A stretch of 64,000 nucleotides of DNA, taken from IMG/VR virus record IMGVR_UViG_3300035675_000004, positions 1 through 64,000 of that record. One strand, 5' to 3'. The stretch comes from a virus. The position numbers and the translations under genes were made by a program. The notes under the pieces are model-generated. The model had not been told where the DNA came from, did no database searches, and saw nothing but the letters and a program-made list of their open reading frames with translations. Positions 2,343 to 29,157 of the stretch are shown piece by piece. Position 1 is the stretch's first letter. Each line of letters opens with the position of its first letter.

Positions 2343-5300
2343 ATGAAATATTATAACGTAGATGCAGAAGGCCCGATAAAGATAGAAATCGTTACTTCGC
2401 TTCCTGCTTGGGAAGCTTCTTTCGAGGGCCGTCTTGTATATCTTGATCCAGAAGATAAACTTTATGTAGCTACAGCCACAGGATGGGTGCCAGCGTATAC
2501 AGGAACTTCTGGCAGTTCAGGCGCTTCTGGCACTTCTGGCACATCTGGAACATCCGGTTCATCTGGCACATCAGGCTCAAGTGGAACATCTGGAACCTCG
2601 CCGCCGGGCTTTTCATCAGGAACATCTGGAACGAGCGGAACTTCTGGAACATCTGGTTCATCGGGAACCAGCGGCTCAAGCGGAAGCTCAGGCACATCTG
2701 GTTCATCTGGAATGAGCGGAACGAGTGGAAGCTCTGGTTCATCAGGAACATCGGGAACATCAGGCTCCTCAGGCGCATCGGGAACATCGGGAACCTCTGG
2801 TTCGTCTGGTTCATCGGGCACATCAGGAAGCTCGGGCACATCAGGTTCATCTGGAAGCTCAGGCACATCAGGTTCATCAGGAAGTAGTGCTGATTGGGGC
2901 CAAGCCTACAGGTTTGATACATCTACTGTAGACGGCGATCCGAATATTGGACATCTCCGCTTCAACACAAGTGATTATTCTACCGTAACTTGGATTTACA
3001 TAGATTTGATGGACAGGTATGGAGGCGATCTTACAGATTGGCTCGATATGCTGGATATGAGTTCGTCACTATGGACAAAAGGTTTCTTGAGAATTTGGAA
3101 GGATGCAGATGAAACCAATTATGTTCTTTATAATATAAGCGGCGATTTGGTTGATGAAACAGGCTACAGAAAAATTCCTGTAGAGCATTTGTCACATCAC
3201 GGTGATTTATACGCTAACGATCAAAATATCAGGCTTGGATATACGCCTTCAGGCGATGCTGGAACGAGTGGAACATCTGGAACATCGGCTTCAGGAACAT
3301 CAGGTGCAAGTGGAACATCAGGAAGTTCTGGAACATCAGGCGAACTGGGCCCAGCTGGAACATCAGGTTCAAGTGGAACATCGGGTGAAGCAGGAACATC
3401 TGGAAGTTCAGGCACAAGCGGAAGTTCTGGAACCTCGGGAGAAGGAACATCAGGAACATCTGGTTCATCGGGTTTGTTTGGCGGCGATAGTATGCCATAT
3501 AAATTTAGCACGACAACGGCCGGCGCCGATACAGATGCTAGATATTTGAGATTTGATAATGCTGCCCCATCTGCTGCCACCGCTCTCTATGCGAATATAG
3601 TAAATGATGATGTTGTGGATATCACCGATTGGTTGGATGATATCATTACTGGCCCAGCTGGTGTAGTGAGAGTTTTTTCTGAGTACGATTCATCGAAATT
3701 TGCTGTCTATACTGTAAATGGGCAAATTACTGATGGAACAACTACTTTTAAAGTAACAACTGGTGCGGATGATGGTCATACTGATGAGCTGATATCAGCT
3801 TTTTATGCAAGTGCAAACTGGATTGGGTTTGGACACCATGCTGGTGCTGTACATTCTTTTGTAAGGTGGCAGAATGTTACTATACCAAACGGTAATACTA
3901 TTTTATCTGCATATGTTACATTCAATGCTTATCAAAACACAACTAATGATCAACCAATACTCATTTATGGAAATGATGTTGATGACGCTGTAGCGCCGAC
4001 AAATTACGCTGGATTTCATGCGTTGGTAAAAACAACAGCGGTTGGAAATTGGTCATCTCCCGGTCTCTGGACACAAAATGTAGATTATGATACGATTGAC
4101 ATATCAAATGTTATTCAGGAAATTGTGGATAGAGCTGGTTGGGCATCAGGTAATGACCTGCAGTTGATATTCTGGAATAATGGCCCAACTGAAGTCAATC
4201 ATCACTATGTTCCAAAATCATATGACGGTTATGGTACGAATGTTGCAGCTAGATTGACTATCTCATATTCATCAACGACCATAGATACAAAAGGCCTTGA
4301 TGTTACTTACATAGATGGTAATGGAACATTCGATGCTGATGAAAGAGTTGTAATCACTTATGTAAAACACGGGACTTCTGGTAGTTCTGGCACATCGGGC
4401 ACATCGGGCACATCGGGTTCAAGCGGAACATCAGGCACGAGCGGAAGCTCAGGAAGTTCTGGAACATCAGGTTCAAGCGGAACATCTGGTTCATCAGGAA
4501 CCAGTGGAAGCTCAGGCACATCTGGTGTTGGGGAAAGTGGAACATCAGGAAGCTCGGGAACATCTGGCATCGGGGTAAGTGGAACATCAGGAAGTTCTGG
4601 AACCTCGGGCACAGGTTTTGAATGGATTGGTTCTTGGGCACCATCGGCCACATATATCGAGCTCGATGTTGTAGAAAATGATAATAATACATATGTCTGC
4701 ACTCTGTCACACACTTCATCAGGAGCAGCGTATGATGAGCCGGGCTCTGGAACATTTTGGGAGCTTTATTGGGATCAATTTGTTCCCGGTGGATCAGGCA
4801 CATCAGGAAGTTCTGGCACAAGTGGAAGTTCGGGAACATCAGGTGAAGGAACTTCTGGAACCAGTGGAAGCTCAGGAACCTCAGGCGATGCCGGCACAAG
4901 TGGAAGCTCGGGAACCTCAGGCTCATCGGGAACCTCAGGCGATGCTGGCACAAGCGGTTCAAGTGGAACATCGGGCGATACAGGCACAAGCGGTTCAAGT
5001 GGAACATCGGGTTCATCAGGAACTTCGGGTGAAGCTGGCACATCAGGTTCAAGTGGAACATCTGGTTCATCGGGAACCTCAGGCGATGCCGGCACAAGCG
5101 GAAGCTCTGGAACATCCGGTTCATCAGGCTCAAGTGGAACATCGGGTGTTGATGGAACATCGGGAAGTTCGGGAACATCAGGTGAAACAGGCACATCAGG
5201 TTCAAGTGGAACTTCGGGAAGTTCGGGAACATCAGGTGAAGCCGGAACAAGCGGAAGCTCTGGAACCTCTGGCTCAAGCGGAACAAGTGGAACATCGGGT

Positions 5301-8300
5301 TCAAGCGGAACATCAGGTGAAGCCGGCACAAGCGGAAGCTCTGGCACATCTGGTTCGTCAGGAACTTCTGGTGATGCTGGCACAAGCGGAAGCTCTGGAA
5401 CCTCTGGCTCAAGCGGAACTTCTGGTGAAGCAGGCACATCAGGTTCAAGTGGAACATCAGGCGAAACTGGAACATCTGGCACATCGGGTTCGAGCGGAAC
5501 CTCGGGTGACGGAACATCTGGCACATCTGGTTCATCAGGAACTTCAGGCGATGCCGGAACATCTGGAAGCTCGGGCACATCAGGCGACAGTGGCACATCA
5601 GGTTCGTCAGGAACATCAGGAAGCTCGGGCACAAGTGGTTCAAGCGGAACCTCTGGCTCATCCGGCACATCTGGTGACGGCACAAGCGGAACATCAGGAA
5701 GTTCAGGAACCTCTGGTATTGCTGGCACAAGCGGAAGCTCTGGAACAAGCGGTGATGGTTTTGAATGGATTGGCACTTGGGCACCATCAGCAACATATAA
5801 TGAAAATGATATTGTAGAAAATGACAATGATACATATATCTGCACATTATCACATACTTCTTCTGGTGCGGCATATGATGAGCCGGGTTCAGGAACATTT
5901 TGGGAACTCTACTGGGATACATTTGTTCCCGGTGGAACAGGAACATCTGGTTCATCTGGAACATCTGGCTCGAGCGGCACTTCAGGTGACGGCACAAGTG
6001 GCACAAGTGGAAGCTCTGGCACAAGTGGTGAAGCAGGCACAAGCGGCTCAAGTGGAACCTCGGGTGATAGTGGAACATCGGGTTCAAGCGGAACATCAGG
6101 TTCATCAGGAACTTCTGGTGATGGAACAAGCGGAACGAGCGGAAGTTCTGGCACAAGTGGGAGCTCCGGCACATCTGGCTCATCAGGTACGAGCGGAAGT
6201 AGCGGAACATCTGGTGTTGATGGAACCAGTGGAAGCTCAGGAACATCAGGAAGCTCGGGCACAAGCGGAACGAGTGGAAGCTCAGGAACTTCTGGTGATA
6301 GTGGAACATCTGGTTCAAGCGGCACGAGCGGAAGCAGTGGAACATCGGGAGAGACCGGAACCAGTGGAAGTAGCGGAACATCAGGAAGCTCGGGCACATC
6401 AGGCTCAAGCGGAACATCAGGAATTGATGGAACATCTGGTTCATCAGGCACATCAGGAAGTAGCGGAACGAGCGGAAGCTCGGGAACTTCTGGTTCTTCA
6501 GGCACAAGCGGAACATCGGGAAGTTCTGGCACGAGCGGTTCGTCTGGCACATCTGGTATAGACGGAACATCTGGAAGCTCTGGAACCAGTGGCTCCTCAG
6601 GCACATCAGGAAGCTCGGGAACATCTGGTTCTTCAGGCACATCAGGAATAGAATACTGGGAAAGAGTGGGAACAGCATTATCACCAAGAAATGCTGGTGA
6701 TTATGTTGATATGAAAAGTGCCGCCGTATCAGGCGTCAGCAATCTTTATTTTGATACAACACCACCGACAGCAGCTTATGAAGAAGGAAGATTGTATTAT
6801 GACGAGACTTGGAAAACTCTGTCTGTCAATATCGGTAGGGATGTAAATCTTCAGATTGGTCAGGAAGAACTGAGAAGGGTATACAACAATACTGGCGTAG
6901 AGATTGCGGATGGAAAAGCGGTTTATACAGATGGCGTGTATACAGATGGTGACAATGATGTTGCAACGATCGCTCTGGCAATCGCAAATGATGTAAACAA
7001 ATATAATGTTCTTGGTCTGACAACACAATCAATCCCCGCAAGTGCTTATGGATTTGTCACGGTAAGAGGACACGTCAATGATATTGATACTTCCGGTTTG
7101 ACAGAAGGAGCTGTTCTCTACTTGAGTGACGATGTTGCTGGTGAAGTGACAACATCATTACCGGATGCTGGAAACTACAAAGCAAGAATTGGAAGATGTA
7201 TTACACAGGCAACCGCAGAAAATCACGGTCGTATCAATGTCAGGATATTCCCCGCACAAAAACTTGGAGACCTGTCAAATGTAAGTGTGCCATCTCCTTC
7301 CCTTGATGATGTTCTTCGTTTCAATGGAACAGAATGGGTAAACGGGCCGCCATCAGTTGCTTCCGCAACGCCGGGTATTATATTCTATAATGCTTCACCG
7401 ACGATTACTGCGGTATCAACTGACAATGAGACACCGATATTGACATTATCCAAGATACCTGTAGTAACAGCAGAGCAGACCAACACGATTTCTGTAGCAA
7501 GTAATACCGTTCTTGGTTCTGCTTGGTTGTATGACACGGTATTGAACAGGGTAACGATTGATGCAGGTGTATGGGAGTTCAATATATTCGCAGGGGTCAA
7601 TTCTACTATTGGTGGTAGAGTAACAACCGTCACAAGACAAGTATACTCTGTTCTTCCACAGGATGGCTCTACTTATACAGTAACGATTACTGGTTCTGGA
7701 ACATCAAGAACTGCCACGGCAAATGGTGGAACACCGTTTGCGCCAGAGAAGATTGACCCTTCTGCAACCAATACAACGGCTTCATTCCTACAGACCCCGA
7801 ATGGAATTTATCAGATTACAGCAAGAGCATCTGATACAGTAGTTACGATTACAACACCGTTGGGATATACAAACGAAAGTGGTGTTACCTTCAATGTATG
7901 GAAAAAATTGTTTGGTGTAACAACTTCAACGATTACATCTATATCACCGAATTATGCACTATGGACGGCTCAATCAACACAAGCAGCCTTCACTATTACT
8001 TTAAAACATAAACTTGGTGCGATGACATTTGGAACGAGTAATAATACCACGACGATTACTCTTTCATATGATGGAACAACGAGAAACACCCACTTCAAGA
8101 CACCGTTGATTACCCTACACGGTAATTTGGCAGGACTTCAAGGTGGAACCGGAACTGTTCCGAATGAAGAATACTACCACTTGACACAAGCAATATATGA
8201 TAATCTTGTTGCGGGTGGTGGAACATCTGGTTCATCGGGAACCTCAGGCACAAGCGGAAGTAGTGGAACGAGTGGAACATCGGGCTCATCAGGCACAAGC

Positions 8301-11300
8301 GGAAGTAGCGGAACATCTGGAAGCAGTGGAACATCAGGTTCAAGCGGAACGAGTGGAAGCTCTGGAACTTCCGGAATTGATGGAACATCAGGCTCAAGTG
8401 GAACATCTGGAATTGATGGAACGAGCGGATCATCAGGAACATCAGGAAGCAGCGGAACCAGTGGAAGCTCGGGAACAAGTGGCACTTCTGGAAGTTCGGG
8501 CACCAGCGGTGATAGCGGAACGAGTGGAAGCTCAGGCACATCTGGTATAGATGGCACATCAGGCTCATCCGGCACATCTGGAATTGACGGCACAAGTGGA
8601 AGCTCGGGCACAAGTGGTTCATCTGGAACATCGGGTTCTTCCGGCACCTCGGGCACAAGCGGAAGCTCTGGAACATCAGGCTCCTCAGGCACATCGGGTG
8701 TTGATGGAACATCTGGTTCAAGTGGAACATCGGGTTCATCGGGCACAAGTGGAACCTCTGGTTCTTCTGGCACTTCGGGTATAGATGGAACGAGCGGAAG
8801 CTCGGGAACTTCAGGCGATAGCGGAACAAGCGGTTCAAGCGGAACCTCTGGAAGCTCAGGCACATCTGGTATTGATGGAACGAGCGGGTCATCAGGAACA
8901 TCAGGTTCTTCAGGAACCTCAGGCACAAGCGGAAGCTCTGGAACATCCGGTTCATCAGGAACATCAGGCGATAGCGGAACAAGCGGTTCAAGCGGAACCT
9001 CTGGAAGTTCGGGAACAAGTGGCGACACCGGCACAAGCGGAAGCTCAGGAACATCTGGTTCAAGTGGAACATCGGGGTCATCTGGAACTTCTGGTTCAAG
9101 CGGAACCTCTGGAACATCGGGGTCATCGGGAACTTCTGGTTCAAGCGGAACAAGCGGTTCAAGCGGAACCAGCGGAAGCTCAGGAACAAGCGGCACTTCT
9201 GGAAGTTCGGGCACCAGCGGTGATAGCGGAACGAGCGGAAGCAGTGGAACATCTGGTTCTTCTGGCACTTCAGGTTCAAGCGGAACATCGGGTGTTGATG
9301 GAACGAGTGGAAGTAGTGGAACATCTGGAAGCTCAGGAACCAGCGGCTCATCAGGAACCTCGGGCACATCTGGTTCATCAGGAACATCAGGGGATAGCGG
9401 AACATCGGGAAGCTCAGGAACATCAGGAAGTTCTGGCACGAGCGGAAGTTCTGGAACGAGTGGTTCATCAGGAACCTCTGGTGATAGTGGAACATCAGGA
9501 AGTTCCGGCACATCAGGTTCAAGTGGAACCTCGGGCGATACTGGAACATCCGGTTCAAGCGGAACCTCTGGAAGCTCAGGAACAAGCGGAACATCTGGAA
9601 GCTCGGGAACGAGCGGCGATGACGGCACAAGTGGAAGCTCTGGAACCAGTGGCTCCTCAGGCACATCGGGAAGCTCGGGCACAAGTGGAACATCAGGAAG
9701 TTCAGGAACCTCTGGTTCATCTGGAACATCAGGAGACACCGGCACATCTGGAAGCTCCGGAACCTCCGGCTCAAGTGGAACATCAGGAAGCGGAACATCT
9801 GGAAGTTCTGGAACCTCGGGAGAAGCTGGAACCAGCGGAAGCTCCGGAACATCTGGCGCAACAGGTATAACAGGCGGATATCTTCATACACAATCAACAC
9901 CAGCGACAGCCTGGGATATTGACCATAATTTGAATTATCAGTATGTTGTTGTTCAGGTATCTAATGAGACAGATTATGTAATAGCGCCAGAAGATATTGA
10001 GTTTGTTGATAGCAATAGTATTTTAGTTACATTCAGTAAAGCGGTTTCGGGCCACGCTGCTGTCGTTGTCGGTGGTGGCACATCGGGAACATCTGGTGTG
10101 GGAGTAAGTGGAACGAGTGGAACATCGGGCTCCTCAGGCACAAGCGGTTCTTCTGGAACCTCGGGCGATGCAGGAACATCTGGTTCATCGGGAACCTCTG
10201 GTGAAGCAGGCACAAGCGGTTCAAGCGGAACGAGTGGAAGCTCTGGAACCTCAGGCGACGGCACAAGTGGAACATCGGGAAGCTCTGGAACCTCTGGTTC
10301 GGGCACAAGTGGAACGAGTGGAAGCTCTGGAACATCGGGTGAAACCGGCACGAGCGGTTCATCAGGCACATCGGGCGACAGCGGAACGAGTGGTTCAAGT
10401 GGAACAAGCGGAAGTTCGGGCACAAGCGGTTCGTCTGGTACTTCAGGAAGTTCAGGAACATCCGGTAGCGGCACATCTGGAACATCGGGCGATACAGGCA
10501 CATCTGGAAGTTCTGGAACCTCTGGCGACACCGGCACATCGGGTTCAAGTGGAACGAGCGGTTCGAGCGGAACGAGTGGCTCAAGCGGAACCTCTGGAAG
10601 CTCAGGCACAAGCGGTTCATCCGGAACTTCTGGTAGCGGCACATCTGGAACATCGGGCGATACAGGCACATCTGGAAGCTCGGGAACCTCTGGTATAGAC
10701 GGAACATCTGGAAGTTCTGGAACGAGTGGAGAGGACGGCACAAGTGGAACGAGTGGTTCAAGTGGAACCAGCGGAAGTTCTGGAACATCAGGAAGTTCAG
10801 GCACAAGCGGTTCATCCGGCACATCAGGCTCCGGCACAAGTGGAACATCCGGTTCTTCGGGAACATCTGGTGAAACTGGCACAAGCGGAAGTAGCGGAAC
10901 ATCAGGCGATGATGGAACATCGGGCACAAGCGGTTCATCGGGAACATCAGGTTCATCTGGAACCAGCGGGTCAAGTGGAACTTCCGGTGATGGAACAAGC
11001 GGCACAAGTGGTTCATCAGGAACCAGTGGAAGTTCTGGCACAAGCGGTTCATCTGGAACATCAGGTGACGGCACAAGCGGAACGAGTGGAAGTTCTGGAA
11101 CCAGCGGCTCCGGCACAAGCGGAACATCGGGCTCAAGCGGAACCTCTGGCACATCGGGCGCTGGAAGTAATATCAGGTTGTTTAGCTGGACGATTGTAAA
11201 TCCGACTGCAGGTTCTGGTATTCCCGGCCCACAGTTGAGGGAAGCTCATACAGGCACAAGAATATCGAGTTATGTTACAGCAGCAACATCAGTTGCATTT

Positions 11301-11498
11301 AATATCGAGGAAAGAGGTACAATCGGGGCCGCCGGAACAGATTTATTGGCTGCCGACCAAACAGCCACTACTACAGGGGCAACTACCACAACACTTTCCA
11401 ATCCCGGCCTTGCTGCAGATTGTTGGTTGTGGTTGGATATTAGTGCTGTAACTGACACACCAGCAATATTGGTTGTTACATTAGCAACAACTGTTTAA
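2343..11498 (+). CDS. Giant (3051 aa) GTS/GSS collagen-like repeat fibre protein with interspersed globular domains
   Basis: Roughly 1700 aa of Gly-X-Y repeats (X/Y mostly Thr/Ser). N-terminal LPAW..EGRL module is shared with other fibre genes; contains duplicated CBM-like modules. Confidence 0.85.
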   Translation: MKYYNVDAEGPIKIEIVTSLPAWEASFEGRLVYLDPEDKLYVATATGWVPAYTGTSGSSGASGTSGTSGTSGSSGTSGSSGTSGTSPPGFSSGTSGTSGTSGTSGSSGTSGSSGSSGTSGSSGMSGTSGSSGSSGTSGTSGSSGASGTSGTSGSSGSSGTSGSSGTSGSSGSSGTSGSSGSSADWGQAYRFDTSTVDGDPNIGHLRFNTSDYSTVTWIYIDLMDRYGGDLTDWLDMLDMSSSLWTKGFLRIWKDADETNYVLYNISGDLVDETGYRKIPVEHLSHHGDLYANDQNIRLGYTPSGDAGTSGTSGTSASGTSGASGTSGSSGTSGELGPAGTSGSSGTSGEAGTSGSSGTSGSSGTSGEGTSGTSGSSGLFGGDSMPYKFSTTTAGADTDARYLRFDNAAPSAATALYANIVNDDVVDITDWLDDIITGPAGVVRVFSEYDSSKFAVYTVNGQITDGTTTFKVTTGADDGHTDELISAFYASANWIGFGHHAGAVHSFVRWQNVTIPNGNTILSAYVTFNAYQNTTNDQPILIYGNDVDDAVAPTNYAGFHALVKTTAVGNWSSPGLWTQNVDYDTIDISNVIQEIVDRAGWASGNDLQLIFWNNGPTEVNHHYVPKSYDGYGTNVAARLTISYSSTTIDTKGLDVTYIDGNGTFDADERVVITYVKHGTSGSSGTSGTSGTSGSSGTSGTSGSSGSSGTSGSSGTSGSSGTSGSSGTSGVGESGTSGSSGTSGIGVSGTSGSSGTSGTGFEWIGSWAPSATYIELDVVENDNNTYVCTLSHTSSGAAYDEPGSGTFWELYWDQFVPGGSGTSGSSGTSGSSGTSGEGTSGTSGSSGTSGDAGTSGSSGTSGSSGTSGDAGTSGSSGTSGDTGTSGSSGTSGSSGTSGEAGTSGSSGTSGSSGTSGDAGTSGSSGTSGSSGSSGTSGVDGTSGSSGTSGETGTSGSSGTSGSSGTSGEAGTSGSSGTSGSSGTSGTSGSSGTSGEAGTSGSSGTSGSSGTSGDAGTSGSSGTSGSSGTSGEAGTSGSSGTSGETGTSGTSGSSGTSGDGTSGTSGSSGTSGDAGTSGSSGTSGDSGTSGSSGTSGSSGTSGSSGTSGSSGTSGDGTSGTSGSSGTSGIAGTSGSSGTSGDGFEWIGTWAPSATYNENDIVENDNDTYICTLSHTSSGAAYDEPGSGTFWELYWDTFVPGGTGTSGSSGTSGSSGTSGDGTSGTSGSSGTSGEAGTSGSSGTSGDSGTSGSSGTSGSSGTSGDGTSGTSGSSGTSGSSGTSGSSGTSGSSGTSGVDGTSGSSGTSGSSGTSGTSGSSGTSGDSGTSGSSGTSGSSGTSGETGTSGSSGTSGSSGTSGSSGTSGIDGTSGSSGTSGSSGTSGSSGTSGSSGTSGTSGSSGTSGSSGTSGIDGTSGSSGTSGSSGTSGSSGTSGSSGTSGIEYWERVGTALSPRNAGDYVDMKSAAVSGVSNLYFDTTPPTAAYEEGRLYYDETWKTLSVNIGRDVNLQIGQEELRRVYNNTGVEIADGKAVYTDGVYTDGDNDVATIALAIANDVNKYNVLGLTTQSIPASAYGFVTVRGHVNDIDTSGLTEGAVLYLSDDVAGEVTTSLPDAGNYKARIGRCITQATAENHGRINVRIFPAQKLGDLSNVSVPSPSLDDVLRFNGTEWVNGPPSVASATPGIIFYNASPTITAVSTDNETPILTLSKIPVVTAEQTNTISVASNTVLGSAWLYDTVLNRVTIDAGVWEFNIFAGVNSTIGGRVTTVTRQVYSVLPQDGSTYTVTITGSGTSRTATANGGTPFAPEKIDPSATNTTASFLQTPNGIYQITARASDTVVTITTPLGYTNESGVTFNVWKKLFGVTTSTITSISPNYALWTAQSTQAAFTITLKHKLGAMTFGTSNNTTTITLSYDGTTRNTHFKTPLITLHGNLAGLQGGTGTVPNEEYYHLTQAIYDNLVAGGGTSGSSGTSGTSGSSGTSGTSGSSGTSGSSGTSGSSGTSGSSGTSGSSGTSGIDGTSGSSGTSGIDGTSGSSGTSGSSGTSGSSGTSGTSGSSGTSGDSGTSGSSGTSGIDGTSGSSGTSGIDGTSGSSGTSGSSGTSGSSGTSGTSGSSGTSGSSGTSGVDGTSGSSGTSGSSGTSGTSGSSGTSGIDGTSGSSGTSGDSGTSGSSGTSGSSGTSGIDGTSGSSGTSGSSGTSGTSGSSGTSGSSGTSGDSGTSGSSGTSGSSGTSGDTGTSGSSGTSGSSGTSGSSGTSGSSGTSGTSGSSGTSGSSGTSGSSGTSGSSGTSGTSGSSGTSGDSGTSGSSGTSGSSGTSGSSGTSGVDGTSGSSGTSGSSGTSGSSGTSGTSGSSGTSGDSGTSGSSGTSGSSGTSGSSGTSGSSGTSGDSGTSGSSGTSGSSGTSGDTGTSGSSGTSGSSGTSGTSGSSGTSGDDGTSGSSGTSGSSGTSGSSGTSGTSGSSGTSGSSGTSGDTGTSGSSGTSGSSGTSGSGTSGSSGTSGEAGTSGSSGTSGATGITGGYLHTQSTPATAWDIDHNLNYQYVVVQVSNETDYVIAPEDIEFVDSNSILVTFSKAVSGHAAVVVGGGTSGTSGVGVSGTSGTSGSSGTSGSSGTSGDAGTSGSSGTSGEAGTSGSSGTSGSSGTSGDGTSGTSGSSGTSGSGTSGTSGSSGTSGETGTSGSSGTSGDSGTSGSSGTSGSSGTSGSSGTSGSSGTSGSGTSGTSGDTGTSGSSGTSGDTGTSGSSGTSGSSGTSGSSGTSGSSGTSGSSGTSGSGTSGTSGDTGTSGSSGTSGIDGTSGSSGTSGEDGTSGTSGSSGTSGSSGTSGSSGTSGSSGTSGSGTSGTSGSSGTSGETGTSGSSGTSGDDGTSGTSGSSGTSGSSGTSGSSGTSGDGTSGTSGSSGTSGSSGTSGSSGTSGDGTSGTSGSSGTSGSGTSGTSGSSGTSGTSGAGSNIRLFSWTIVNPTAGSGIPGPQLREAHTGTRISSYVTAATSVAFNIEERGTIGAAGTDLLAADQTATTTGATTTTLSNPGLAADCWLWLDISAVTDTPAILVVTLATTV
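4370..6645 (+). repeat. Coding GTSGSS (9/18-bp period) repeat tract 1
   Basis: Degenerate ggaacatctggttcatca-type units with synonymous codon variation. Confidence 0.95.
8220..11165 (+). repeat. Coding GTSGSS repeat tract 2, interrupted by one small domain at about 9870-10070
   Basis: Same repeat units. Confidence 0.95.
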
Positions 11499-11509: not shown

Positions 11510-12646
11510 ATGAAATCAAATATACCGTTGAAGAATTTTAGTGATTATTTCTTTGAAAATATTTCTGTGGGTTATACAAATCAATTACAGATAACATCTG
11601 TATGTAATGCAAAATGTATGTTTTGTTCAAATGAACAGAACCCATTTGAAATAAAGAGATGCTCTTTCAGACCATTAGAGGAGATAGAGAAGGTTATCTG
11701 GGCAACACCGGAAATCAATGGGATAATATATCTCAATGACAGTTTGCCCGGAAGGATATCAGAAGGCGAAGCATTTTTACATCCTGATTTCTTTCAGATT
11801 TTGAGAGTTATAAGAGGAAAGTTTAATAATGTGATAAAGGCAACAACAAACGGTTCAATGCTTACACCGGAACTTATTAGACAGATAAAAGATTATGCTC
11901 CCTTTGAAGTTGCAATATCTCTGCCTACTATTGATAGGGAACATTGGAAGGAAGTTTTCAGTTTGAAGGATGAGCATTATTATACAACAATAAATTCCTT
12001 TCCTCTTTTGGCGAGCCATAATATCGGTGTTACGGCAAATATGACCCCGATGCCGGCTTGGTTGGGATGGAAGGAGTTGGAAGAAACCTTTGAGTTTCTA
12101 TCCAGAAACGCACGACATATTTTGATATATGCTCCGGGCTATACGAGACTTTCAAAGATACCGGATAAAATGGTATATGACAAAATGGAATTGTCTCTGT
12201 TTCTGGAAAAGATGAGTAAAAAATACTCTTTTACATATACTTGGAATTTAGACCCAAGAAAGGCTTTATACATAAGTTACGATGCGATAACCGATGTTAT
12301 ATGGGGATCATATAGATTGGGGCACAGGAATTTTCTATGGCTTACATCGGTAGCTGCAAGGGAAAGGTTTGAAAGACTTTTAAATGAGTTAAGTCTTGGT
12401 ATCCCGATAAATAGTGTTATAGTAAATGTTCCGAATAATGTTTATGGTGGTAATATCGAATGTGCTGGTCTGTGGATGATACAGGATATTTACGATGTTC
12501 TCGATGACTATCTGGCGAAAAATAAAATGCCGGAAACAGTTGTTATGCCAAAGGGATTTCTGGACAAGTATGGTTATGATTTGCGAGGAGATAATATAAT
12601 AGATTTATTTAAAAAATATCAAAATCTCCATATCGCACTAATATAG
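11510..12646 (+). CDS. Radical SAM protein, DUF512-like C-terminus
   Basis: CNAKCMFC (CxxxCxxC), GEAFLHP, TTNG and a C-terminal GGNIECAGL motif. Confidence 0.85.
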   Translation: MKSNIPLKNFSDYFFENISVGYTNQLQITSVCNAKCMFCSNEQNPFEIKRCSFRPLEEIEKVIWATPEINGIIYLNDSLPGRISEGEAFLHPDFFQILRVIRGKFNNVIKATTNGSMLTPELIRQIKDYAPFEVAISLPTIDREHWKEVFSLKDEHYYTTINSFPLLASHNIGVTANMTPMPAWLGWKELEETFEFLSRNARHILIYAPGYTRLSKIPDKMVYDKMELSLFLEKMSKKYSFTYTWNLDPRKALYISYDAITDVIWGSYRLGHRNFLWLTSVAARERFERLLNELSLGIPINSVIVNVPNNVYGGNIECAGLWMIQDIYDVLDDYLAKNKMPETVVMPKGFLDKYGYDLRGDNIIDLFKKYQNLHIALI

Positions 12647-18945: not shown

Positions 18946-18955
18946 GAGCATTGAG

Positions 18956-24053: not shown

Positions 24054-24087
24054 AACCGATATTTTTGGTAAGATGTTTCGTTTTGAT

Positions 24088-24095
24088 TATAAATA
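24088..24095 (+). promoter_or_regulatory. T4-type late promoter TATAAATA
   Basis: Exact consensus, intergenic, upstream of the spanin-like genes. Confidence 0.7.
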
Positions 24096-24125
24096 TGTTA
24101 TAATCTATTAGAATAGGGGTGTATT

Positions 24126-24479: not shown

Positions 24480-24480
24480 A

Positions 24481-24873: not shown

Positions 24874-24876
24874 TTT

Positions 24877-27800
24877 ATGTGCAATCCAAAATGTCTTGCG
24901 TTTGTCGAAAAATATCTTATACCTAATGATATCATAGGAAAATCTATAATTGATGTGGGGAGCCGGGACATAAACGGCTCTCCTCGATATTATGTCCTGT
25001 CACACAAACCAGAAAAATATATCGGCGTCGATATTGAAAAAGGAAAAGGCGTCGATATTATTTGCGATGCAAATGAGCTGGTAAAAAAGTTTGGCAGAGA
25101 AACATTTGATATCGTTATTTCTACAGAACTCCTTGAACACATAAAGGACTGGCGGCGCGCCATCCAGAATATGAAGGATGTTCTCAAGCCCGGCGGTAAA
25201 ATCTTTATCACCACAAGGTCTCCCGGTTTTCCAACTCACAATTATCCGCAGGACTATTGGCGATTTACGAAAGAAAATATGTATCGCATCTTCGATGATT
25301 TCGATAATGTAGTCATAGAGGACGATGACAGTATGCCCGGCGTTTTCGTTTTTGGAACAAAATCTGAAAGACAGAGTTCATTATCTGATATCCATTTGAG
25401 AAACATCCATCACAGCCTCATCTACGGACATACAAGTTTCATACCCTTCTCAGGTTATGCTGCTCACGCTAGAGAATTTTTCACACGGTTGAATAAGTTT
25501 TATCCAGTAAGGATACGAAATTTTGCACACACGCCTAATTTGTCACATCTGACACAAGAACAGAAAGATATGGTCGTTCATATGACTTGGAAGGATCCGC
25601 CATATGAAATCGGCACATCTTTTGATATCAATCAATATAAGAGAATACTCAATATTATTTTGATGGAGACAAATCATCATTATTATTATGATGAATATCG
25701 AGGCCCGAAGATTGCTTATAATGTATGGGAGAGCACCAGACAACCGGAACAATTTTTCAAAAGGATATTGAAATATGACCAGCTATGGGTGCCGACACAT
25801 TGGCAGAGACAATGTTCTGTAGAGCAAGGTTATCCAGAAGATAGGGTCAAGGTGGTGCCGGAAGGCGTCGATGGTAATATATTTTTCCCGAAGCCAGATT
25901 TGAAAAAACCCGAGAGGTTCAGGTTTGTAATTTTTGGACGATGGGATTATAGAAAATATACTACAGAAATGATAAAGGCCTTTTTGATGGAGTTCAAAAA
26001 GACAGAGCCCGTGGAGTTGTATATTTCGGTTGACAATCCATATCCGGTGGATGAGTTGAAATCTACAGAAGAACGCCTTGTTTATTACGGATTGAAAGAT
26101 AATCGAATACATATATTGCATTTTCCTTCACAGGATTATTACATTCAAATGCTTCAGACATCACACGCTTTTCTTTCGTGCTCTCGATCAGAAGGATGGA
26201 ACCTTCCTCTTATTGAAGCAATCGCTTGTGGACTTCCCACGATCTGTTCTGATTATGGTGCACAGTTGGAATTTGCGGACGGTATTTCTGCGAAGGTTGC
26301 TATAAAGGAAATGAAACGTCCAAAGAATGTGTTCATGCAAAGTAATGTGCCGGGATTGTGGGCCGAGCCTGATTTTGAACATCTGATGTTTACAATGAGG
26401 GATGTGTATGAACGGTATGATCACTGGCAGAAAATAGCCGACGATGGTTCAATAAAAGTCAGGAAGGAATTTTCTTGGGATAAGGCGGTGAACAAGGCTC
26501 TGGGCATTATAGAGAACACTTTCCAGCAACCTGATATTGTGAAATTGAATGTCGGTGCTGGTGATGAGAAAAAACCCGGATATGTAAACATAGACAAATA
26601 TACATCATCTGATCAGAAAGCAGATGGTGCTGATCTACAGTATGATGCTGAAAGCGTAGATGAAATTTTCTCCTCTCATATGCTCGAACATCTTGGTAAG
26701 AATGAGATACTCAAAACATTGAAAGATTGGTATCGGATTTTGAAGTGGGATGGTAAGATTGTTCTCGATGTTCCTGATATCGAATGGTGCATAAAGTTTT
26801 TCTTGGAACACGCTGAAGTCAGTGTTGGTGACCGCCCATCAAAATGGGAGTTTCCACTGGACACGATTTTTGGAAATCAGGAACACGAAGGCGAATATCA
26901 CAAAACAGGCTTCACAAAAGAAAGGTTAAGATTTCTTCTGGAAGAAGCCGGATTTTCAGATGTTCTTGTCAAGACACATACTTCACACAATCAGGAATGT
27001 ATCTACGCTGAGGGATACAAGAGAAAAAAGAAACTCAAAGAAGTTTTTATCGTGGATTGTTATCCTGATACACAGGAAAAGATTGACCTTACCGTATCAA
27101 TCATCGAGAAGCTAAAAAAATATAATCAACCGATAGCATTGGTATCACATTATCCAATCCCGCCGGAATTATCATCATTGGTAAACTACTCTATTTATGA
27201 CCACAATAATATTCTGAGTGAAGGATGGTCACTCAATTACTGGTATATCACCAAAGAATATAAGGTTGTCACGAAGCTGGAGAAAAAATACCACGCGGCC
27301 GCCTGCTACTCATCTCTGAAAAACGCTGTTGATTTTCTCAAGGATAAATTTGATTTTGCGCACTTTATAGAGTTCGATATGGATGCGGATTTTGATTTGT
27401 ATCTGGAAAAGACCGCAGAGCAGAGAGATAACAATAAGAAATTTGTGGGATTTTTATACATTGAAGAACAGCTAGGACGCAATATCGGTATTATGGCCAA
27501 TTTATTTTCTTTCTCCTTGCGATGGTTGGCGGACAAACTTGACCAGATAAATTCGTGGGAAGAGTACAGAAAACTTTCAGATTTAACCGCGGCCGCAGAG
27601 AGGGCCAATGTTGATCATGTGTTTGAAAATTGGCTTTATAGATATTTCAAATATAAAAATATATTATCTGATGCGATATTTCTCTCCAAAGACAAGAAAA
27701 ATATAATTCGTAATAGTAATGTTTATTGCAGAGTGGATGTTGAGCCAAAGGTTAAATTTCATTTGTCTGAAACCGATGAAGGCCAGATAGTTTTGTTTGC

Positions 27801-29157
27801 TTTCAATATAAGCCCGGAAGCTAAAACAATACATATGGGTCTCGGCGACGATATGAGAGCATTTGATTTGAAACCAAAGAACGGAAATGCCTATGTGGTT
27901 ATTCCCCGTCCCGGCTATCTCACGACAGCCAAATTTACAGTAGATGATGAAACAAAAGAAATAGAGATCGACCCGCTTAAATCCTATGATGAGACTATTT
28001 TCAGATTTAAAGATGATAAAATAAAATGTATCAGATGGGAGCCAATACATAATAAAGGGTTTATGGAAACAGAGCCCGTTGCGCCCGCAAAAGATGAGAC
28101 GATAAAGATAACATTCCATGACAAAGCCAAAGTGGACATTACTGGTGATCAAAATGACAGCACCTATGGTGTAGAGTTTATAGATAAGGATAATAACACT
28201 TCTGTTTTCACAGGAAGCATAAAAATAAACCACTGGACTGCCCCGAACAGACGATATTATACTGATTGGAAAATAAAAATCAGTAAGGATGGCCGTCCTT
28301 ACAGTGAATATGATTTTGATTTGAAGGGAAAGAAAGTATACATTTATATGGATGCTAATCCATTGGGCGACAATATTGCATGGTTTCCATACGCCGAGGA
28401 GTTTAGAAAGAAACATGGTTGTGAAACATATGTCTCGACATACTGGAACCATCTATTTGAAGCCAACTATCCTGAATTGAAATTTGTTCCGCCGGGAAGC
28501 AAAATAGAAAATCTGACAGCCATGTATAGTATAGGTATCAGGGATAATGATGCTGACAGTAACAAGAATAACTGGAAAACCGTTCCTTTACAGCAGGTCG
28601 CCGCTGATTATTTGGGTCTTGAATACAAAGAAATCAAACCTATAATCACTGTTCCAAAGATGAAAAGACCATTGGAGGACAGGTATATTTGTATTTCCGA
28701 GCATTCTACTTTACAGGCAAAGTATTGGAATTATCCCGGTGGCTGGCAGAAAGTTATTGATTACTTACTCCAAAAGGGTATAAAAACGATGGTAATCAGT
28801 AAAGAGCCAACGAAGTTACAGAGAATTATAAATAAAACGAATAGTTCAATACAGCAGACAATGAACAATATCCAACATTGTGAGTTCTTTATGGGGGTAA
28901 GTGCAGGGCCGACTTGGTTATCGTGGGCCATGAATAAACCTACCATTCTCATCTCCGGTTATAGCACCAGATGGGCAGAAATGAAAGATTGTGTAAGAAT
29001 AATCAACGAAGCTGTCTGTCATGGGTGCTTCAACGATCCTACCTTGTTTTTTGACAGGGGTAATTGGTGGTGGTGCCCAAGAAATAAGAAATTCGAGTGC
29101 ACGCTAGCAATAACACCCGAAAAAGTCATATCTGAAATAGATAAATTATTGCAGTAA
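24877..29157 (+). CDS. Multidomain methyltransferase / GT4 glycosyltransferase / methyltransferase / Aah-TibC-type O-heptosyltransferase
   Basis: IDVGS SAM motif; SRSEGWNLPLIEA (GT4 EX7E); LNVGAG...SHMLEH; C-terminal LGDNIAW and CHGC-x15-C-x7-C iron-finger-like motif. Confidence 0.85.
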   Translation: MCNPKCLAFVEKYLIPNDIIGKSIIDVGSRDINGSPRYYVLSHKPEKYIGVDIEKGKGVDIICDANELVKKFGRETFDIVISTELLEHIKDWRRAIQNMKDVLKPGGKIFITTRSPGFPTHNYPQDYWRFTKENMYRIFDDFDNVVIEDDDSMPGVFVFGTKSERQSSLSDIHLRNIHHSLIYGHTSFIPFSGYAAHAREFFTRLNKFYPVRIRNFAHTPNLSHLTQEQKDMVVHMTWKDPPYEIGTSFDINQYKRILNIILMETNHHYYYDEYRGPKIAYNVWESTRQPEQFFKRILKYDQLWVPTHWQRQCSVEQGYPEDRVKVVPEGVDGNIFFPKPDLKKPERFRFVIFGRWDYRKYTTEMIKAFLMEFKKTEPVELYISVDNPYPVDELKSTEERLVYYGLKDNRIHILHFPSQDYYIQMLQTSHAFLSCSRSEGWNLPLIEAIACGLPTICSDYGAQLEFADGISAKVAIKEMKRPKNVFMQSNVPGLWAEPDFEHLMFTMRDVYERYDHWQKIADDGSIKVRKEFSWDKAVNKALGIIENTFQQPDIVKLNVGAGDEKKPGYVNIDKYTSSDQKADGADLQYDAESVDEIFSSHMLEHLGKNEILKTLKDWYRILKWDGKIVLDVPDIEWCIKFFLEHAEVSVGDRPSKWEFPLDTIFGNQEHEGEYHKTGFTKERLRFLLEEAGFSDVLVKTHTSHNQECIYAEGYKRKKKLKEVFIVDCYPDTQEKIDLTVSIIEKLKKYNQPIALVSHYPIPPELSSLVNYSIYDHNNILSEGWSLNYWYITKEYKVVTKLEKKYHAAACYSSLKNAVDFLKDKFDFAHFIEFDMDADFDLYLEKTAEQRDNNKKFVGFLYIEEQLGRNIGIMANLFSFSLRWLADKLDQINSWEEYRKLSDLTAAAERANVDHVFENWLYRYFKYKNILSDAIFLSKDKKNIIRNSNVYCRVDVEPKVKFHLSETDEGQIVLFAFNISPEAKTIHMGLGDDMRAFDLKPKNGNAYVVIPRPGYLTTAKFTVDDETKEIEIDPLKSYDETIFRFKDDKIKCIRWEPIHNKGFMETEPVAPAKDETIKITFHDKAKVDITGDQNDSTYGVEFIDKDNNTSVFTGSIKINHWTAPNRRYYTDWKIKISKDGRPYSEYDFDLKGKKVYIYMDANPLGDNIAWFPYAEEFRKKHGCETYVSTYWNHLFEANYPELKFVPPGSKIENLTAMYSIGIRDNDADSNKNNWKTVPLQQVAADYLGLEYKEIKPIITVPKMKRPLEDRYICISEHSTLQAKYWNYPGGWQKVIDYLLQKGIKTMVISKEPTKLQRIINKTNSSIQQTMNNIQHCEFFMGVSAGPTWLSWAMNKPTILISGYSTRWAEMKDCVRIINEAVCHGCFNDPTLFFDRGNWWWCPRNKKFECTLAITPEKVISEIDKLLQ

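What the first reader, a model, noticed from the sequence alone, without database searches (positions are those of the whole stretch)
2343..29157. Candidate phage virion O-glycosylation system: Ser/Thr GXY fibres plus an Aah/TibC-type protein heptosyltransferase
Seen: three fibre genes (1, 2343, 13359) carry more than 2000 residues of Gly-Thr-Ser/Gly-Ser-Ser. In the same late region, the last ~350 aa of a 1426-aa enzyme (about 28100-29157) have a TibC-like N-terminal beta domain (TFHD.AKV...FID.D...W....RYY..W.IKI), LGDNIAW (putative catalytic Asp) and CHGC-x15-C-x7-C. Established: Aah/TibC (BAHT family) enzymes use ADP-heptose to hyper-glycosylate Ser residues in repetitive autotransporter passengers and carry a four-Cys iron finger. 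Inference: the phage builds densely glycosylated, mucin-like fibres. The fused GT4 and two methyltransferases could extend and cap the glycan. Possible roles are stiffening a Pro-free triple helix, protease resistance, shielding or adhesion.
Basis: partly seen in the sequence, partly recalled or inferred. Interest (0 to 1): 0.92.

Follow-up and report, generated by a model that had tools for sequence, protein, structure and literature searches.

The report
Phage TibC-like enzyme for serine-collagen fibres
An uncultured T4-like phage encodes giant proline-free Gly-Thr-Ser/Gly-Ser-Ser collagen-like fibres and, in the same late gene block, a five-domain enzyme ending in a true relative of TibC, the E. 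coli enzyme that sugar-coats adhesins. Across phages this enzyme occurs almost only alongside such fibres, so the phage probably sugar-coats its own fibres, but no sugar has been observed.

Summary
P0002 (2343-11498) and P0003 (13359-15491) hold 2058 residues of Gly-X-Y runs, 88% with Ser at Y and one Pro in total.

Residues 1074-1423 of the 1426-aa protein (24877-29157) pass the curated TibC/Aah model (257 bits, cut-off 200). Their model superposes on TibC at TM 0.9, against 0.4-0.5 for LPS heptosyltransferases. The catalytic Asp, Thr/Lys/Trp donor contacts and four iron-finger Cys are kept.

Three things differ from TibC:
- the adenine-contacting Arg286 is Thr;
- the dodecamer "thumb" is 10 residues shorter;
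- no ADP-heptose genes are in the record.

So the sugar is uncertain.

The protein reads MT-GT4-MT-GT-A-BAHT.

Co-occurrence is strong. 18 of 46 viral records with GTS-GSS repeats carry the enzyme (5 of 6 near-complete). None of 40 records with Pro-type Gly-X-Y repeats do, and only 4 of 50,697 GenBank phage records do. Enzyme and fibre genes lie within 10 kb in 12 of 19 records.

A marine GT2-GT4-BAHT clade has no Gly-X-Y repeats. I found no paper on this. The scan has flagged the same pairing on many other genomes. Glycosylation itself is untested.

The parts
1..1083 (+). 3' part of a fibre or virion protein gene (5' open). It has short GTS/GSS tracts and shares an Ig-like 'AWxxxHNL...' domain with the two large fibres.
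   Evidence: Translation. Only 21 residues lie in Gly-X-Y runs of at least 5 triplets. It matches PHROGs of virion structural proteins.
2343..11498 (+). Giant collagen-like fibre P0002 (3051 aa) and candidate glycan acceptor. It has 21 Gly-X-Y runs totalling 1671 residues (GTS 286, GSS 187; Y = Ser in 88% of triplets; one Pro), interrupted by globular domains including two CBM5/12 modules.
   Evidence: Pfam Collagen 612.7 bits; CBM_5_12 49.8 bits, two stretches.
11510..12646 (+). Radical SAM enzyme with a DUF512-like C-terminus, lying between the fibre genes. Its role is unknown; it may be a further modifier.
   Evidence: (Radical_SAM 53.1 bits, DUF512 25.1 bits).
13359..15491 (+). Second collagen-like fibre P0003 (710 aa) and candidate acceptor. 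It has 387 residues in two Gly-X-Y runs (GTS 69, GSS 44, no Pro). Its N-terminal ~50 residues resemble those of P0002.
   Evidence: tail-fibre PHROGs; Collagen 174.3 bits.
24088..24095 (+). T4-type late-promoter motif TATAAATA. It sits upstream of two small coiled-coil ORFs (24126-24479 and 24481-24873) and the enzyme gene.
   Evidence: 10 matches against 3.0 expected, 9 of them on the + strand. Most of those lie just upstream of a gene, including 29172 (tail protein), 37377 (scaffold) and 56190/56199 (sheath); the two small ORFs match only coiled-coil models.
24877..25386 (+). Domain 1 of P0001: class I SAM methyltransferase (residues about 1-170).
   Evidence: Methyltransf_11 68.2 bits in two stretches; Methyltransf_23 59.7 bits.
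25444..26526 (+). Domain 2 of P0001: GT4-family (GT-B) glycosyltransferase (residues about 190-550).
   Evidence: Glycos_transf_1 45.5 bits (342-466); Glyco_transf_4 (256-332). This domain is fused to the BAHT domain in all eight phage relatives examined.
26539..27021 (+). Domain 3 of P0001: second SAM methyltransferase (residues about 555-715).
   Evidence: second Methyltransf_11 stretch; CMAS 591-630; NF045667, 580-707.
27022..27969 (+). Domain 4 of P0001: GT-A-like glycosyltransferase fold with a DxD motif (FIEFDMDAD, nt 27376-27390), followed by a beta-sandwich (residues 959-1031).
   Evidence: Pfam finds nothing here. The AlphaFold model has pLDDT 74.5. Foldseek hits are GT-A enzymes such as glycogenin, GlcAT-P, B3GalT, LARGE1 and the LH3 transferase domain, at E from 1e-5 to 1e-3. 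Two Asp of the motif are invariant in 7 homologues.
28096..29145 (+). Domain 5 of P0001: TibC/Aah-family (BAHT) protein O-glycosyltransferase. It has the N-terminal beta-barrel, the GT-B catalytic core, the catalytic Asp in LGDNIAW and the four-Cys finger CHGC-x15-C-x7-C.
   Evidence: TIGR04414 257 bits, cut-off 200; 261 bits; TibC 4rap, E = 4e-48; key residues; pLDDT 93.7; TM 0.89-0.91 to TibC.
29172..29179 (+). Next late-promoter motif, 15 nt after the enzyme's stop codon. It marks the end of the enzyme operon and the start of the tail-protein and portal genes.
   Evidence: 29206-30048 matches a tail-protein PHROG; portal gp20 at 30472-32163.

Best explanation
This is a phage-encoded system for O-glycosylating the phage's own proteins, expressed late in infection.

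The acceptors are the proline-free collagen-like fibres P0002 and P0003. Almost every triplet in their repeats offers a Ser at the Y position.

The enzyme P0001 is a single 1426-aa assembly line with five domains.
- The C-terminal TibC/Aah-type domain attaches the first sugar to Ser hydroxyls of the fibre repeats in the host cytoplasm.
- The GT-A-like and GT4 domains extend that sugar into a short oligosaccharide.
- The two SAM methyltransferase domains methylate it.

What is shown: family membership, conserved catalytic residues, the domain architecture, the late structural-gene context, and the cross-phage co-occurrence and linkage with Ser/Thr Gly-X-Y fibres.

What is inferred: that the fibre is the acceptor, the order of the steps, and the purpose. 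The most likely purpose is stabilising or stiffening a Pro-free triple helix and shielding it.

The donor sugar is open. ADP-heptose is the family precedent, but the adenine-contact residue is changed and the phage carries no heptose pathway.
For: BAHT membership:
- TIGR04414 scores 257 and 261 bits against a cut-off of 200.
- TibC (PDB 4rap) matches at E = 4e-48.
- Foldseek gives TM 0.89-0.91 to TibC, against 0.40-0.51 for WaaC/WaaF.
- TibC Asp110, Thr226, Lys230, Trp305 and Cys339/342/358/370 are all conserved.

Acceptor plausibility:
- TibC and Aah modify Ser, not Thr, in repetitive substrates (PMC4358343).
- Here 605 of 686 triplets have Ser at Y.

Co-occurrence:
- The six closest viral relatives of the domain all carry Ser/Thr Gly-X-Y repeats.
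- 18 of 46 viral records picked only for GTS-GSS repeats carry TIGR04414 (17 above the cut-off; 5 of 6 records at least 90% complete).
- 0 of 40 records with Pro-type Gly-X-Y carry it (0 of 13 near-complete); Fisher p = 2e-6.
- Among 20 records with a T4-like capsid protein related to this phage's, only the two closest relatives carry it.
- Only 4 of 50,697 GenBank phage records carry it.

Diversity: the positive enzymes are varied, forming 10 clusters at 50% identity.

Linkage: a Ser/Thr Gly-X-Y ORF lies within 10 kb of the enzyme gene in 12 of 19 records, as close as 51 bp.

Timing and context:
- A T4 late-promoter motif lies upstream of the enzyme operon.
- Every ORF assigned a function in the window is on the + strand, and the fibre-enzyme stretch holds fibre, lectin, SLT, portal and capsid genes.

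Conserved core: a GT4 + BAHT fusion occurs in all eight phage relatives examined.
Against: - No glycan has been observed on any such fibre, so the acceptor is assigned only by association.
- A clade of 14 T4-like viral contigs (apparently marine; GT2-GT4-BAHT, about 1146 aa) and the 636-kb megaphage LR756504 carry the domain with no Gly-X-Y run anywhere in their records. Other acceptors therefore exist.
- 28 of 46 GTS-GSS records lack the enzyme. Most are fragments, but G025 (98% complete) and G037 (84%) also lack it.
- TibC recognises a folded beta-helix through its iron finger and works as a dodecamer. Here the thumb hairpin is 10 residues shorter and lacks the Phe265/Val266 tip, and the substrate would be a different fold.
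- Arg286 is Thr, and there is no GmhA or HldE in this record or in the complete Mel-JY01 genome.
- GT4, GT-A and methyltransferase domains are equally typical of polysaccharide synthesis.
Confidence: 0.6

Rival explanations
1. The enzyme glycosylates virion or phage proteins other than the Gly-X-Y fibres, such as capsid, sheath or other fibre domains. The fibres travel with it only because both sit in the same variable late-gene region.
For: - The marine GT2-GT4-BAHT clade and megaphage LR756504 have the domain but no Gly-X-Y repeats.
- Mycobacteriophages glycosylate capsid and tail-tube subunits (Freeman et al. 2023, as cited in PMC12619734).
- In 7 of 19 positive records no Ser/Thr Gly-X-Y ORF lies within 10 kb of the enzyme gene.
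Against: - The association is specific to Ser/Thr-type repeats: 18 of 46 against 0 of 40 Pro-type records.
- It holds across 10 enzyme clusters at 50% identity and across genome sizes from 66 to 299 kb.
- No ORF of 120 aa or more with a 60-residue window of at least 40% Ser+Thr lies beside the enzyme in the clade without Gly-X-Y repeats, so that clade offers no alternative repetitive acceptor either.
Confidence: 0.15
2. The multi-domain protein builds or alters a host cell-surface glycan (LPS core, O-chain or capsule) during infection, for example to block superinfection. This is the usual reading of glycosyltransferases found beside tail-fibre genes in T4-like marine phages.
For: - PMC7029224 reads glycosyltransferases in the tail-fibre hypervariable region of pelagimyophages this way, and notes rfaE in those phages.
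- GT9 relatives are LPS heptosyltransferases.
- GT4, GT-A and methyltransferase domains are common in polysaccharide pathways.
- The same genome carries a NeuB / CMP-sugar pathway.
Against: - The domain is a BAHT by curated HMM, key residues and fold, not an LPS GT9.
- The characterised BAHTs, TibC and Aah, are cytoplasmic enzymes acting on proteins (PMC4358343).
- The late-promoter context argues against an early host-remodelling role.
- This reading does not explain the specific co-occurrence and adjacency with Ser/Thr Gly-X-Y fibres.
Confidence: 0.12
3. The enzyme glycosylates and methylates hypermodified phage DNA bases as protection against restriction, as T4 glucosyltransferases do.
For: - T4-like phages commonly glycosylate DNA; PMC12619734 cites Pyle et al. 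2024 on diverse DNA glycans.
- The genome encodes a dCMP deaminase.
Against: - No BAHT is known to act on DNA.
- The gene sits in the late structural block under a late-promoter motif.
- The specific association with Ser/Thr Gly-X-Y fibres is unexplained by this reading.
- I did not search for a base hydroxymethylase.
Confidence: 0.04

Closest known systems
TibC-TibA and Aah-AIDA-I of E. coli (bacterial autotransporter heptosyltransferases, BAHT; TIGR04414; PDB 4RAP/4RB4; PMC4358343)
   Same: - The same protein family by curated HMM, and the same fold: beta-barrel, GT-B core and four-Cys finger, at TM 0.9.
- The same catalytic Asp and the same Thr/Lys/Trp donor contacts.
- The same logic: a cytoplasmic enzyme encoded near a long, highly repetitive, Ser-rich surface protein that it would decorate many times.
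- The residue at the stereoselectivity position is Ser, as in Aah (TibC has Pro300).
   Different: - It is encoded by a phage, not beside an autotransporter.
- It is the last domain of a five-domain protein, not a free-standing enzyme of about 400 aa.
- The candidate acceptor is a Gly-X-Y collagen-like repeat, not a beta-helix with 19-residue repeats.
- The thumb hairpin that builds the TibC dodecamer is 10 residues shorter and lacks its hydrophobic tip.
- Arg286, the adenine contact, is Thr.
- In the tree the autotransporter enzymes form a separate clade on a long branch (1.12) from all phage and environmental homologues.
- The donor sugar is unknown.
Mycobacteriophage virion glycosylation (Freeman et al. 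2023, Cell Host Microbe; seen here only as cited in PMC12619734)
   Same: Phage-encoded glycosyltransferases placed among structural genes that O-glycosylate virion proteins.
   Different: The transferase families differ. The acceptors there are the C-termini of capsid and tail-tube subunits, not kilobase-long repeats. That case was shown by experiment; this one is inferred.
Glycosylated collagen-like proteins (from my own knowledge, not tested here): BclA of the Bacillus anthracis exosporium (Gly-Pro-Thr repeats bearing O-linked rhamnose-anthrose), Riftia cuticle collagen (galactosylated Thr at Y stabilises the triple helix) and Mimivirus collagen-like fibrils
   Same: Gly-X-Y repeats with a hydroxy amino acid at Y that carries O-glycans. 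In Riftia, glycosylation replaces hydroxyproline as the helix stabiliser.
   Different: Here there is essentially no Pro, Ser rather than Thr sits at Y, the transferase family is different, and the setting is a phage.
LPS heptosyltransferases WaaC/WaaF (GT9, PF01075)
   Same: A distantly related GT-B catalytic core; the Pfam GT9 model matches weakly (27.5 bits).
   Different: TIGR02193 scores only 19 bits against a cut-off of 185. Foldseek TM is 0.40-0.51. These enzymes have no N-terminal beta-barrel and no Cys finger, and they act on lipid A-Kdo rather than on protein.

Membership tests
BAHT (TibC/Aah, TIGR04414) | Scores above the curated cut-off of the family HMM over its full length | tested here: met
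   257 bits and 261 bits against a cut-off of 200, covering model positions 10-373 of 374. LPS heptosyltransferase I scores 19 bits.
BAHT (TibC/Aah, TIGR04414) | TibC protomer fold: N-terminal flattened beta-barrel, GT-B catalytic domain and inserted Cys-finger module | tested here: met
   The model has pLDDT 93.7. Foldseek gives E = 1.8e-35 and TM 0.89-0.91 to 4rap/4rb4; the next hits, WaaF/WaaC, have TM 0.40-0.51.
BAHT (TibC/Aah, TIGR04414) | Catalytic base Asp110 and donor contacts Thr226, Lys230 and Trp305 | tested here: met
   All are conserved (LGDNIAW, STLQAKYW, GPTW). Asp and Trp are invariant, and Lys is present in 64 of 65 aligned homologues.
BAHT (TibC/Aah, TIGR04414) | Arg286 contacting adenine N1, the basis of ADP-sugar specificity | tested here: not met
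   It is Thr in the window enzyme. Across phage and environmental homologues the position is variable (T 23, R 16, V 14, I 8), while Arg is kept in the three autotransporter-linked enzymes.
BAHT (TibC/Aah, TIGR04414) | Four-Cys iron finger (Cys339/342/358/370) | tested here: met
   CHGC-x15-C-x7-C aligns residue for residue. Whether it binds iron cannot be tested here. A few phage versions (L005/L006, L241) lack the cysteines.
BAHT (TibC/Aah, TIGR04414) | Beta-hairpin thumb (Phe265/Val266) and ring-shaped dodecamer | tested here: not met
   The thumb segment is 18 residues, against 28 in Aah and the other two autotransporter-linked enzymes. It has a 10-residue deletion in the TibC alignment and no Phe-Val tip. 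The oligomeric state itself cannot be tested here.
BAHT (TibC/Aah, TIGR04414) | Encoded next to its autotransporter substrate, which carries AIDA-type repeats | tested here: not met
   The E. coli plasmid enzymes sit directly upstream of AIDA-I-type autotransporters. No autotransporter was seen among the ORFs annotated in this window; the neighbours are phage fibre and virion genes.
BAHT (TibC/Aah, TIGR04414) | Transfers heptose from ADP-heptose to Ser of a protein | not testable with these tools
   No GmhA or HldE is found in this record or in the complete Mel-JY01 genome. The donor and the activity need biochemistry.
Collagen-like (Gly-X-Y) proteins | Uninterrupted Gly at every third residue over long runs | tested here: met
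   P0002 has 21 runs, the longest 525 residues; P0003 has runs of 273 and 114 residues. Pfam Collagen scores 612.7 and 174.3 bits.
Collagen-like (Gly-X-Y) proteins | Pro/Hyp-rich X and Y positions, and formation of a triple helix | tested here: not met
   There is one Pro in 2058 run residues of P0002 and P0003; X is Thr or Ser and Y is Ser. Triple-helix formation cannot be tested here.
GT-A glycosyltransferases (middle domain, residues 716-950) | GT-A Rossmann-like fold with a DxD metal/nucleotide-sugar motif after a beta-strand | tested here: inconclusive
   The model has pLDDT 74.5. Foldseek hits to glycogenin, GlcAT-P, B3GalT and LARGE1 have E from 1e-5 to 1e-3, but TM is only 0.3-0.5, and nucleotidyltransferases of the same fold also hit. 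Two Asp of FIEFDMDAD are invariant in 7 homologues. There is no Pfam match.

The most novel reading that the evidence does not exclude
Many uncultured phages build proline-free (Gly-Thr/Ser-Ser)n fibres, hundreds of nanometres long, whose triple helix depends on dense Ser-O-glycans. A phage-specific branch of the TibC/Aah family installs these glycans, and this branch has left behind both the dodecamer and ADP-heptose. In this phage a single five-domain enzyme primes, extends and methylates the glycan, and the phage's own NeuB/CMP-sugar pathway may cap it with a nonulosonic acid. That would be a second, viral solution to collagen stabilisation and a widespread kind of virion glycosylation not yet described.
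Probability: 0.25. Interest if true: 0.85.

Novelty: new variant of a known kind. Interest (0 to 1): 0.72.

Why it matters
Virion glycosylation in phages has so far been shown, as far as I know, only for mycobacteriophage capsids and tail tubes. BAHT enzymes are known only as partners of virulence autotransporters.

If the inference holds, three things follow.
- A large and diverse set of environmental phages, including a cultured Microcystis phage and a 735-kb megaphage, sugar-coat giant collagen-like fibres with a repurposed adhesin-glycosylating enzyme.
- Glycosyltransferases next to tail-fibre genes in T4-like aquatic phages, usually read as host LPS modifiers, would need a different reading.
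- It would give a testable answer to how Pro-free Gly-X-Y repeats can form stable fibres.

It would also supply compact multi-domain enzymes for dense Ser glycosylation of repeat proteins. The BAHT family itself turns out to be mostly non-autotransporter: 744 representative clusters at E <= 1e-30, most of the best hits being fusions of 600-2000 aa.

Tried and rejected
Donor pathway:
- ADP-heptose genes (GmhA/SIS_2, HldE domains I and II) are absent from this record and from the complete Mel-JY01 genome.
- The only related hits were a SIS_2 match in megaphage LR756504 and a sub-threshold rfaE-II-like match in G002.
- I therefore could not support heptose as the sugar.

Nonulosonate cluster:
- I confirmed NeuB, a CMP-sugar cytidylyltransferase, an epimerase/dehydratase, an SDR, two radical SAM enzymes and methyltransferases.
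- Pfam found no Maf-like or sialyltransferase family there even at E <= 0.5.
- NeuB occurs in only 2 of 50 GTS/BAHT records. I treat it as an accessory of this lineage, not part of the core system.

Identification and host:
- Megablast of 20.8 kb (29200-50000) against GenBank phages found nothing.
- The capsid protein is at most 36% identical to that of any cultured phage. The host stays unknown.

Literature: searches on TibC, heptosyltransferase, phage, virus and tail fibre found no paper on a phage BAHT. Nothing is held on Mel-JY01.

Other negative or limited results:
- The bacterial-genome scan returned only two loci, both without Gly-X-Y repeats, because its seed peptides are narrow.
- The careful tree did not finish in time; I used the quick IQ-TREE tree.
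- CheckV completeness is inconsistent: 46% for this 100.9-kb record but 100% for a 101.9-kb relative. I therefore do not call the phage 'jumbo'.

Full report
**Context**

The window is the first 64 kb of a 100,942-base IMG/VR virus record. Every ORF assigned a function lies on the + strand. It is the late region of a T4-like myovirus:
- portal gp20 (30472-32163), prohead protease, scaffold and major capsid protein gp23 (38452-39618);
- large terminase, tail-sheath stabiliser, sheath, gp19-like tube proteins and a baseplate protein.

The capsid protein is at most 36% identical to that of any cultured phage, and 20.8 kb of DNA has no megablast match in GenBank phages. The host is unknown. CheckV rates this record 46% complete but rates a 101,855-base relative (capsid protein 82% identical) 100% complete. 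The genome may therefore be nearly whole.

**Observation**

- P0002 (2343-11498, 3051 aa) has 21 Gly-X-Y runs totalling 1671 residues. There are 286 GTS and 187 GSS triplets, Ser occupies Y in 490 of 557 triplets, and there is one Pro.
- P0003 (13359-15491, 710 aa) has 387 such residues and no Pro.
- The visible part of the 5'-open ORF 1-1083 has only 21.

Pfam Collagen scores 612.7 and 174.3 bits. P0002 also carries two CBM5/12 modules. P0003 matches tail-fibre PHROGs.

**What the enzyme is**

Residues 1074-1423 match NCBIfam TIGR04414 (autotransporter strand-loop-strand O-heptosyltransferase, Aah/TibC) at 257 bits. The curated cut-off is 200. LPS heptosyltransferase I scores 19 bits (261 bits). 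The domain matches TibC (PDB 4rap) at E = 4e-48 over residues 11-386 of TibC.

An AlphaFold model built on 32 sequences has pLDDT 93.7. It superposes on TibC at TM 0.89-0.91 (E = 1.8e-35), against 0.40-0.51 for WaaF and WaaC.

I used the residues defined in the TibC structure paper (PMC4358343).

Conserved:
- the catalytic base Asp110;
- the phosphate contacts Thr226 and Lys230;
- the heptose contact Trp305;
- the four iron-finger cysteines 339/342/358/370.

Different:
- Arg286, which contacts adenine N1 and explains the ADP specificity, is Thr. This position is variable in phage and environmental homologues but stays Arg in the autotransporter-linked enzymes.
- The beta-hairpin thumb, whose Phe265/Val266 tip builds the TibC dodecamer, is 18 residues instead of 28.
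- The stereoselectivity position (Pro300 in TibC) is Ser, as in Aah.

In a quick maximum-likelihood tree, the three autotransporter-linked enzymes form their own clade on a long branch (1.12). All phage and environmental homologues fall on the other side.

**The rest of the protein**

Pfam and NCBIfam find a SAM methyltransferase (about 1-170), a GT4 glycosyltransferase (about 190-550) and a second methyltransferase (about 555-715).

Residues 716-1075 match no family. Seven homologues share this domain. An AlphaFold model (pLDDT 74.5) shows an alpha/beta domain followed by a beta-sandwich. Foldseek places the first part among GT-A enzymes: glycogenin, GlcAT-P, B3GalT5/6, LARGE1 and the transferase domain of lysyl hydroxylase LH3. 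E-values run from 1e-5 to 1e-3, and TM-scores are only 0.3-0.5. A DxD-type motif, FIEFDMDAD, has two invariant Asp.

So the protein most likely holds three transferase and two methyltransferase domains: MT-GT4-MT-GT-A-BAHT.

All eight phage relatives I examined also fuse a GT4 domain to the BAHT domain. Their methyltransferase or GT2 additions vary.

**Expression context**

The T4 late-promoter motif TATAAATA occurs 10 times against 3.0 expected, 9 of them on the + strand. Most lie directly upstream of structural genes.
- One, at 24088, precedes two small coiled-coil ORFs and the enzyme gene.
- The next, at 29172, follows the enzyme's stop codon.

The enzyme is thus most likely made late in infection, together with virion proteins. 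This is inferred from the motif, not measured.

**Co-occurrence test**

Forward direction:
- Of the viral relatives of the BAHT domain, the six closest all carry Ser/Thr-rich Gly-X-Y repeats. These are this record, L003, the 735-kb megaphage LR756501, Microcystis phage Mel-JY01, L004 and L005, at 41-49% identity.
- A tight clade of 14 viral contigs, apparently marine (35-40% identity; GT2-GT4-BAHT, about 1146 aa), has no run of eight Gly-X-Y triplets anywhere. It also has no ORF of 120 aa or more with a 60-residue window of at least 40% Ser+Thr near the gene. One contig (L017) carries T4 gp59 and gp32 homologues next to the enzyme gene. The 636-kb megaphage LR756504 also has no Gly-X-Y run.

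Reverse direction:
- Of the 46 records of at least 20 kb that could be searched, 18 have a TIGR04414 match. 17 of these are above the curated cut-off, and 5 of the 6 records at least 90% complete are positive.

Controls:
- 0 of 40 records with a Pro-containing Gly-X-Y pattern have the enzyme, including 0 of 13 near-complete records.
- Among 20 records with a T4-like capsid protein related to this phage's, only the two closest relatives have it, and one of those two also matches the repeat pattern.
- Only 4 of 50,697 GenBank phage records have it.
- Fisher's exact test gives p = 2e-6 for 18/46 against 0/40, and p = 5e-4 for 5/6 against 0/13.

The positives are not one lineage. Their BAHT domains form 10 clusters at 50% identity, and the records range from 66 to 299 kb. 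In 12 of 19 records a Ser/Thr Gly-X-Y ORF lies within 10 kb of the enzyme gene, in one case 51 bp away.

Caveats: most records are fragments, the comparison is not phylogenetically corrected, and two fairly complete GTS-GSS records (G025, G037) lack the enzyme.

**Sugar supply**

Neither this record nor the complete Mel-JY01 genome encodes GmhA or HldE. Together with Arg286-to-Thr, this leaves the donor open.

It encodes NeuB (204 bits), a CMP-sugar-type cytidylyltransferase, an epimerase/dehydratase, an SDR, a 2-hydroxyacid dehydrogenase, two radical SAM enzymes (one with a SPASM domain) and several methyltransferases.
- I could not confirm a Maf-like or sialyltransferase gene there.
- NeuB is present in only 2 of 50 related records.
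- It shows that this phage invests in glycan synthesis, but it is not part of the conserved core.

**Mechanism proposed**

Shown:
- a bona fide BAHT-family domain with an intact active site;
- its fusion to further transferases and methyltransferases;
- late structural-gene context;
- specific co-occurrence and linkage with Ser/Thr Gly-X-Y fibres.

Established for the family: TibC and Aah add many heptoses to Ser, not Thr, of repetitive passenger domains in the cytoplasm (PMC4358343).

Inferred:
- the BAHT domain primes Ser at the Y position of the fibre repeats;
- the GT-A and GT4 domains extend the sugar;
- the methyltransferases cap it.

From my own knowledge, galactosylated Thr at Y stabilises the Pro-poor Riftia cuticle collagen, and BclA of Bacillus anthracis is an O-glycosylated collagen-like protein. 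Helix stabilisation plus shielding is therefore the most plausible purpose.

**Rivals**

- Another virion protein is the acceptor (0.15).
- The enzyme modifies host surface glycan, the usual reading of such genes in pelagimyophages (PMC7029224) (0.12).
- The enzyme glycosylates DNA (0.04).

None of these explains the specificity for Ser/Thr-type repeats.

**Novelty**

Literature searches found nothing on phage BAHT enzymes or on glycosylated phage collagen-like fibres.

The family is far larger than its autotransporter-linked members. It has 1444 representative clusters at E <= 1e-3 and 744 at E <= 1e-30, and most of the best hits are multi-domain fusions.

This scan has flagged the same pairing before on many other genomes: 166 notes in at least 124 genomes. 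Their follow-up verdicts agree with mine.

I class this as a new variant of a known kind: a known enzyme family with a new host, a new fusion architecture and a new candidate substrate class, still without experimental proof.

Noticed in passing
window 40198-45635: A complete PrkA (AAA + kinase C-terminal domain), DUF444 (YeaH-like) and SpoVR cassette sits between the capsid module and the large terminase gene. This is a bacterial stress/sporulation-linked triad carried by a phage.
   Followed up: partly
window 11510-12646: A radical SAM enzyme with a DUF512-like C-terminus starts 12 nt after the giant fibre gene and ends just before a Gly_rich_2 protein gene (12648-13331). It may be another fibre modifier. 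I did not test whether it co-occurs with the fibres elsewhere.
   Followed up: partly
L030 4500-16426 (record G000, about 86.5-98.4 kb), minus strand: A sugar-synthesis cluster: NeuB (204 bits), CTP_transf_3 cytidylyltransferase, epimerase/dehydratase, SDR, 2-hydroxyacid dehydrogenase, two radical SAM enzymes (one with SPASM) and methyltransferases of FkbM and other types. A dCMP deaminase also lies in this stretch. Pfam finds no transferase for the product.
   Followed up: partly
L002 (Microcystis phage Mel-JY01, PP395634) 2-3049, + strand: A 1016-codon open frame of GTS/GSS/GTR/GTD triplets lies on the + strand. The GenBank record instead annotates minus-strand 'hypothetical proteins' (1-651, 739-2298), which are probably shadow frames of the repeat. 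The BAHT fusion at 4750-8430 is annotated only as 'methyltransferase FkbM'.
   Followed up: partly
L007-L020 (viral contigs), e.g. L017 7640-11053: A tight clade of viral contigs (L017 carries T4 gp59 and gp32 homologues) has a GT2-GT4-BAHT fusion of about 1146 aa. In L017 it follows a GT4 + FkbM-methyltransferase protein and precedes gp59 and gp32. There are no Gly-X-Y repeats anywhere in these records, so the acceptor is unknown.
   Followed up: partly
L005/L006 and L241 (BAHT domains): Some phage BAHT domains keep the catalytic Asp, Lys and Trp but have lost all four iron-finger cysteines. The finger is therefore dispensable in part of the phage branch.
   Followed up: no
window 52515-54269: A 584-aa protein joins a cytidylyltransferase-like nucleotidyltransferase domain to DUF6267 (346 bits). 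A similar gene, annotated 'cytidylyltransferase like protein', lies near the BAHT gene in Mel-JY01. It does not match HldE domain II.
   Followed up: partly
window 55677-56180, 58633-59382 and 59382-60161: Three gp19-like tail-tube paralogues flank the sheath gene; the first matches only weakly (16.8 bits).
   Followed up: no
window 18851-20368 and 1094-2305: A double LamG/concanavalin-like lectin protein (142 bits) and a weak CBM96-like protein lie among the fibre genes. P0002 itself carries two CBM5/12 modules. The fibre apparatus is rich in carbohydrate-binding domains.
   Followed up: no
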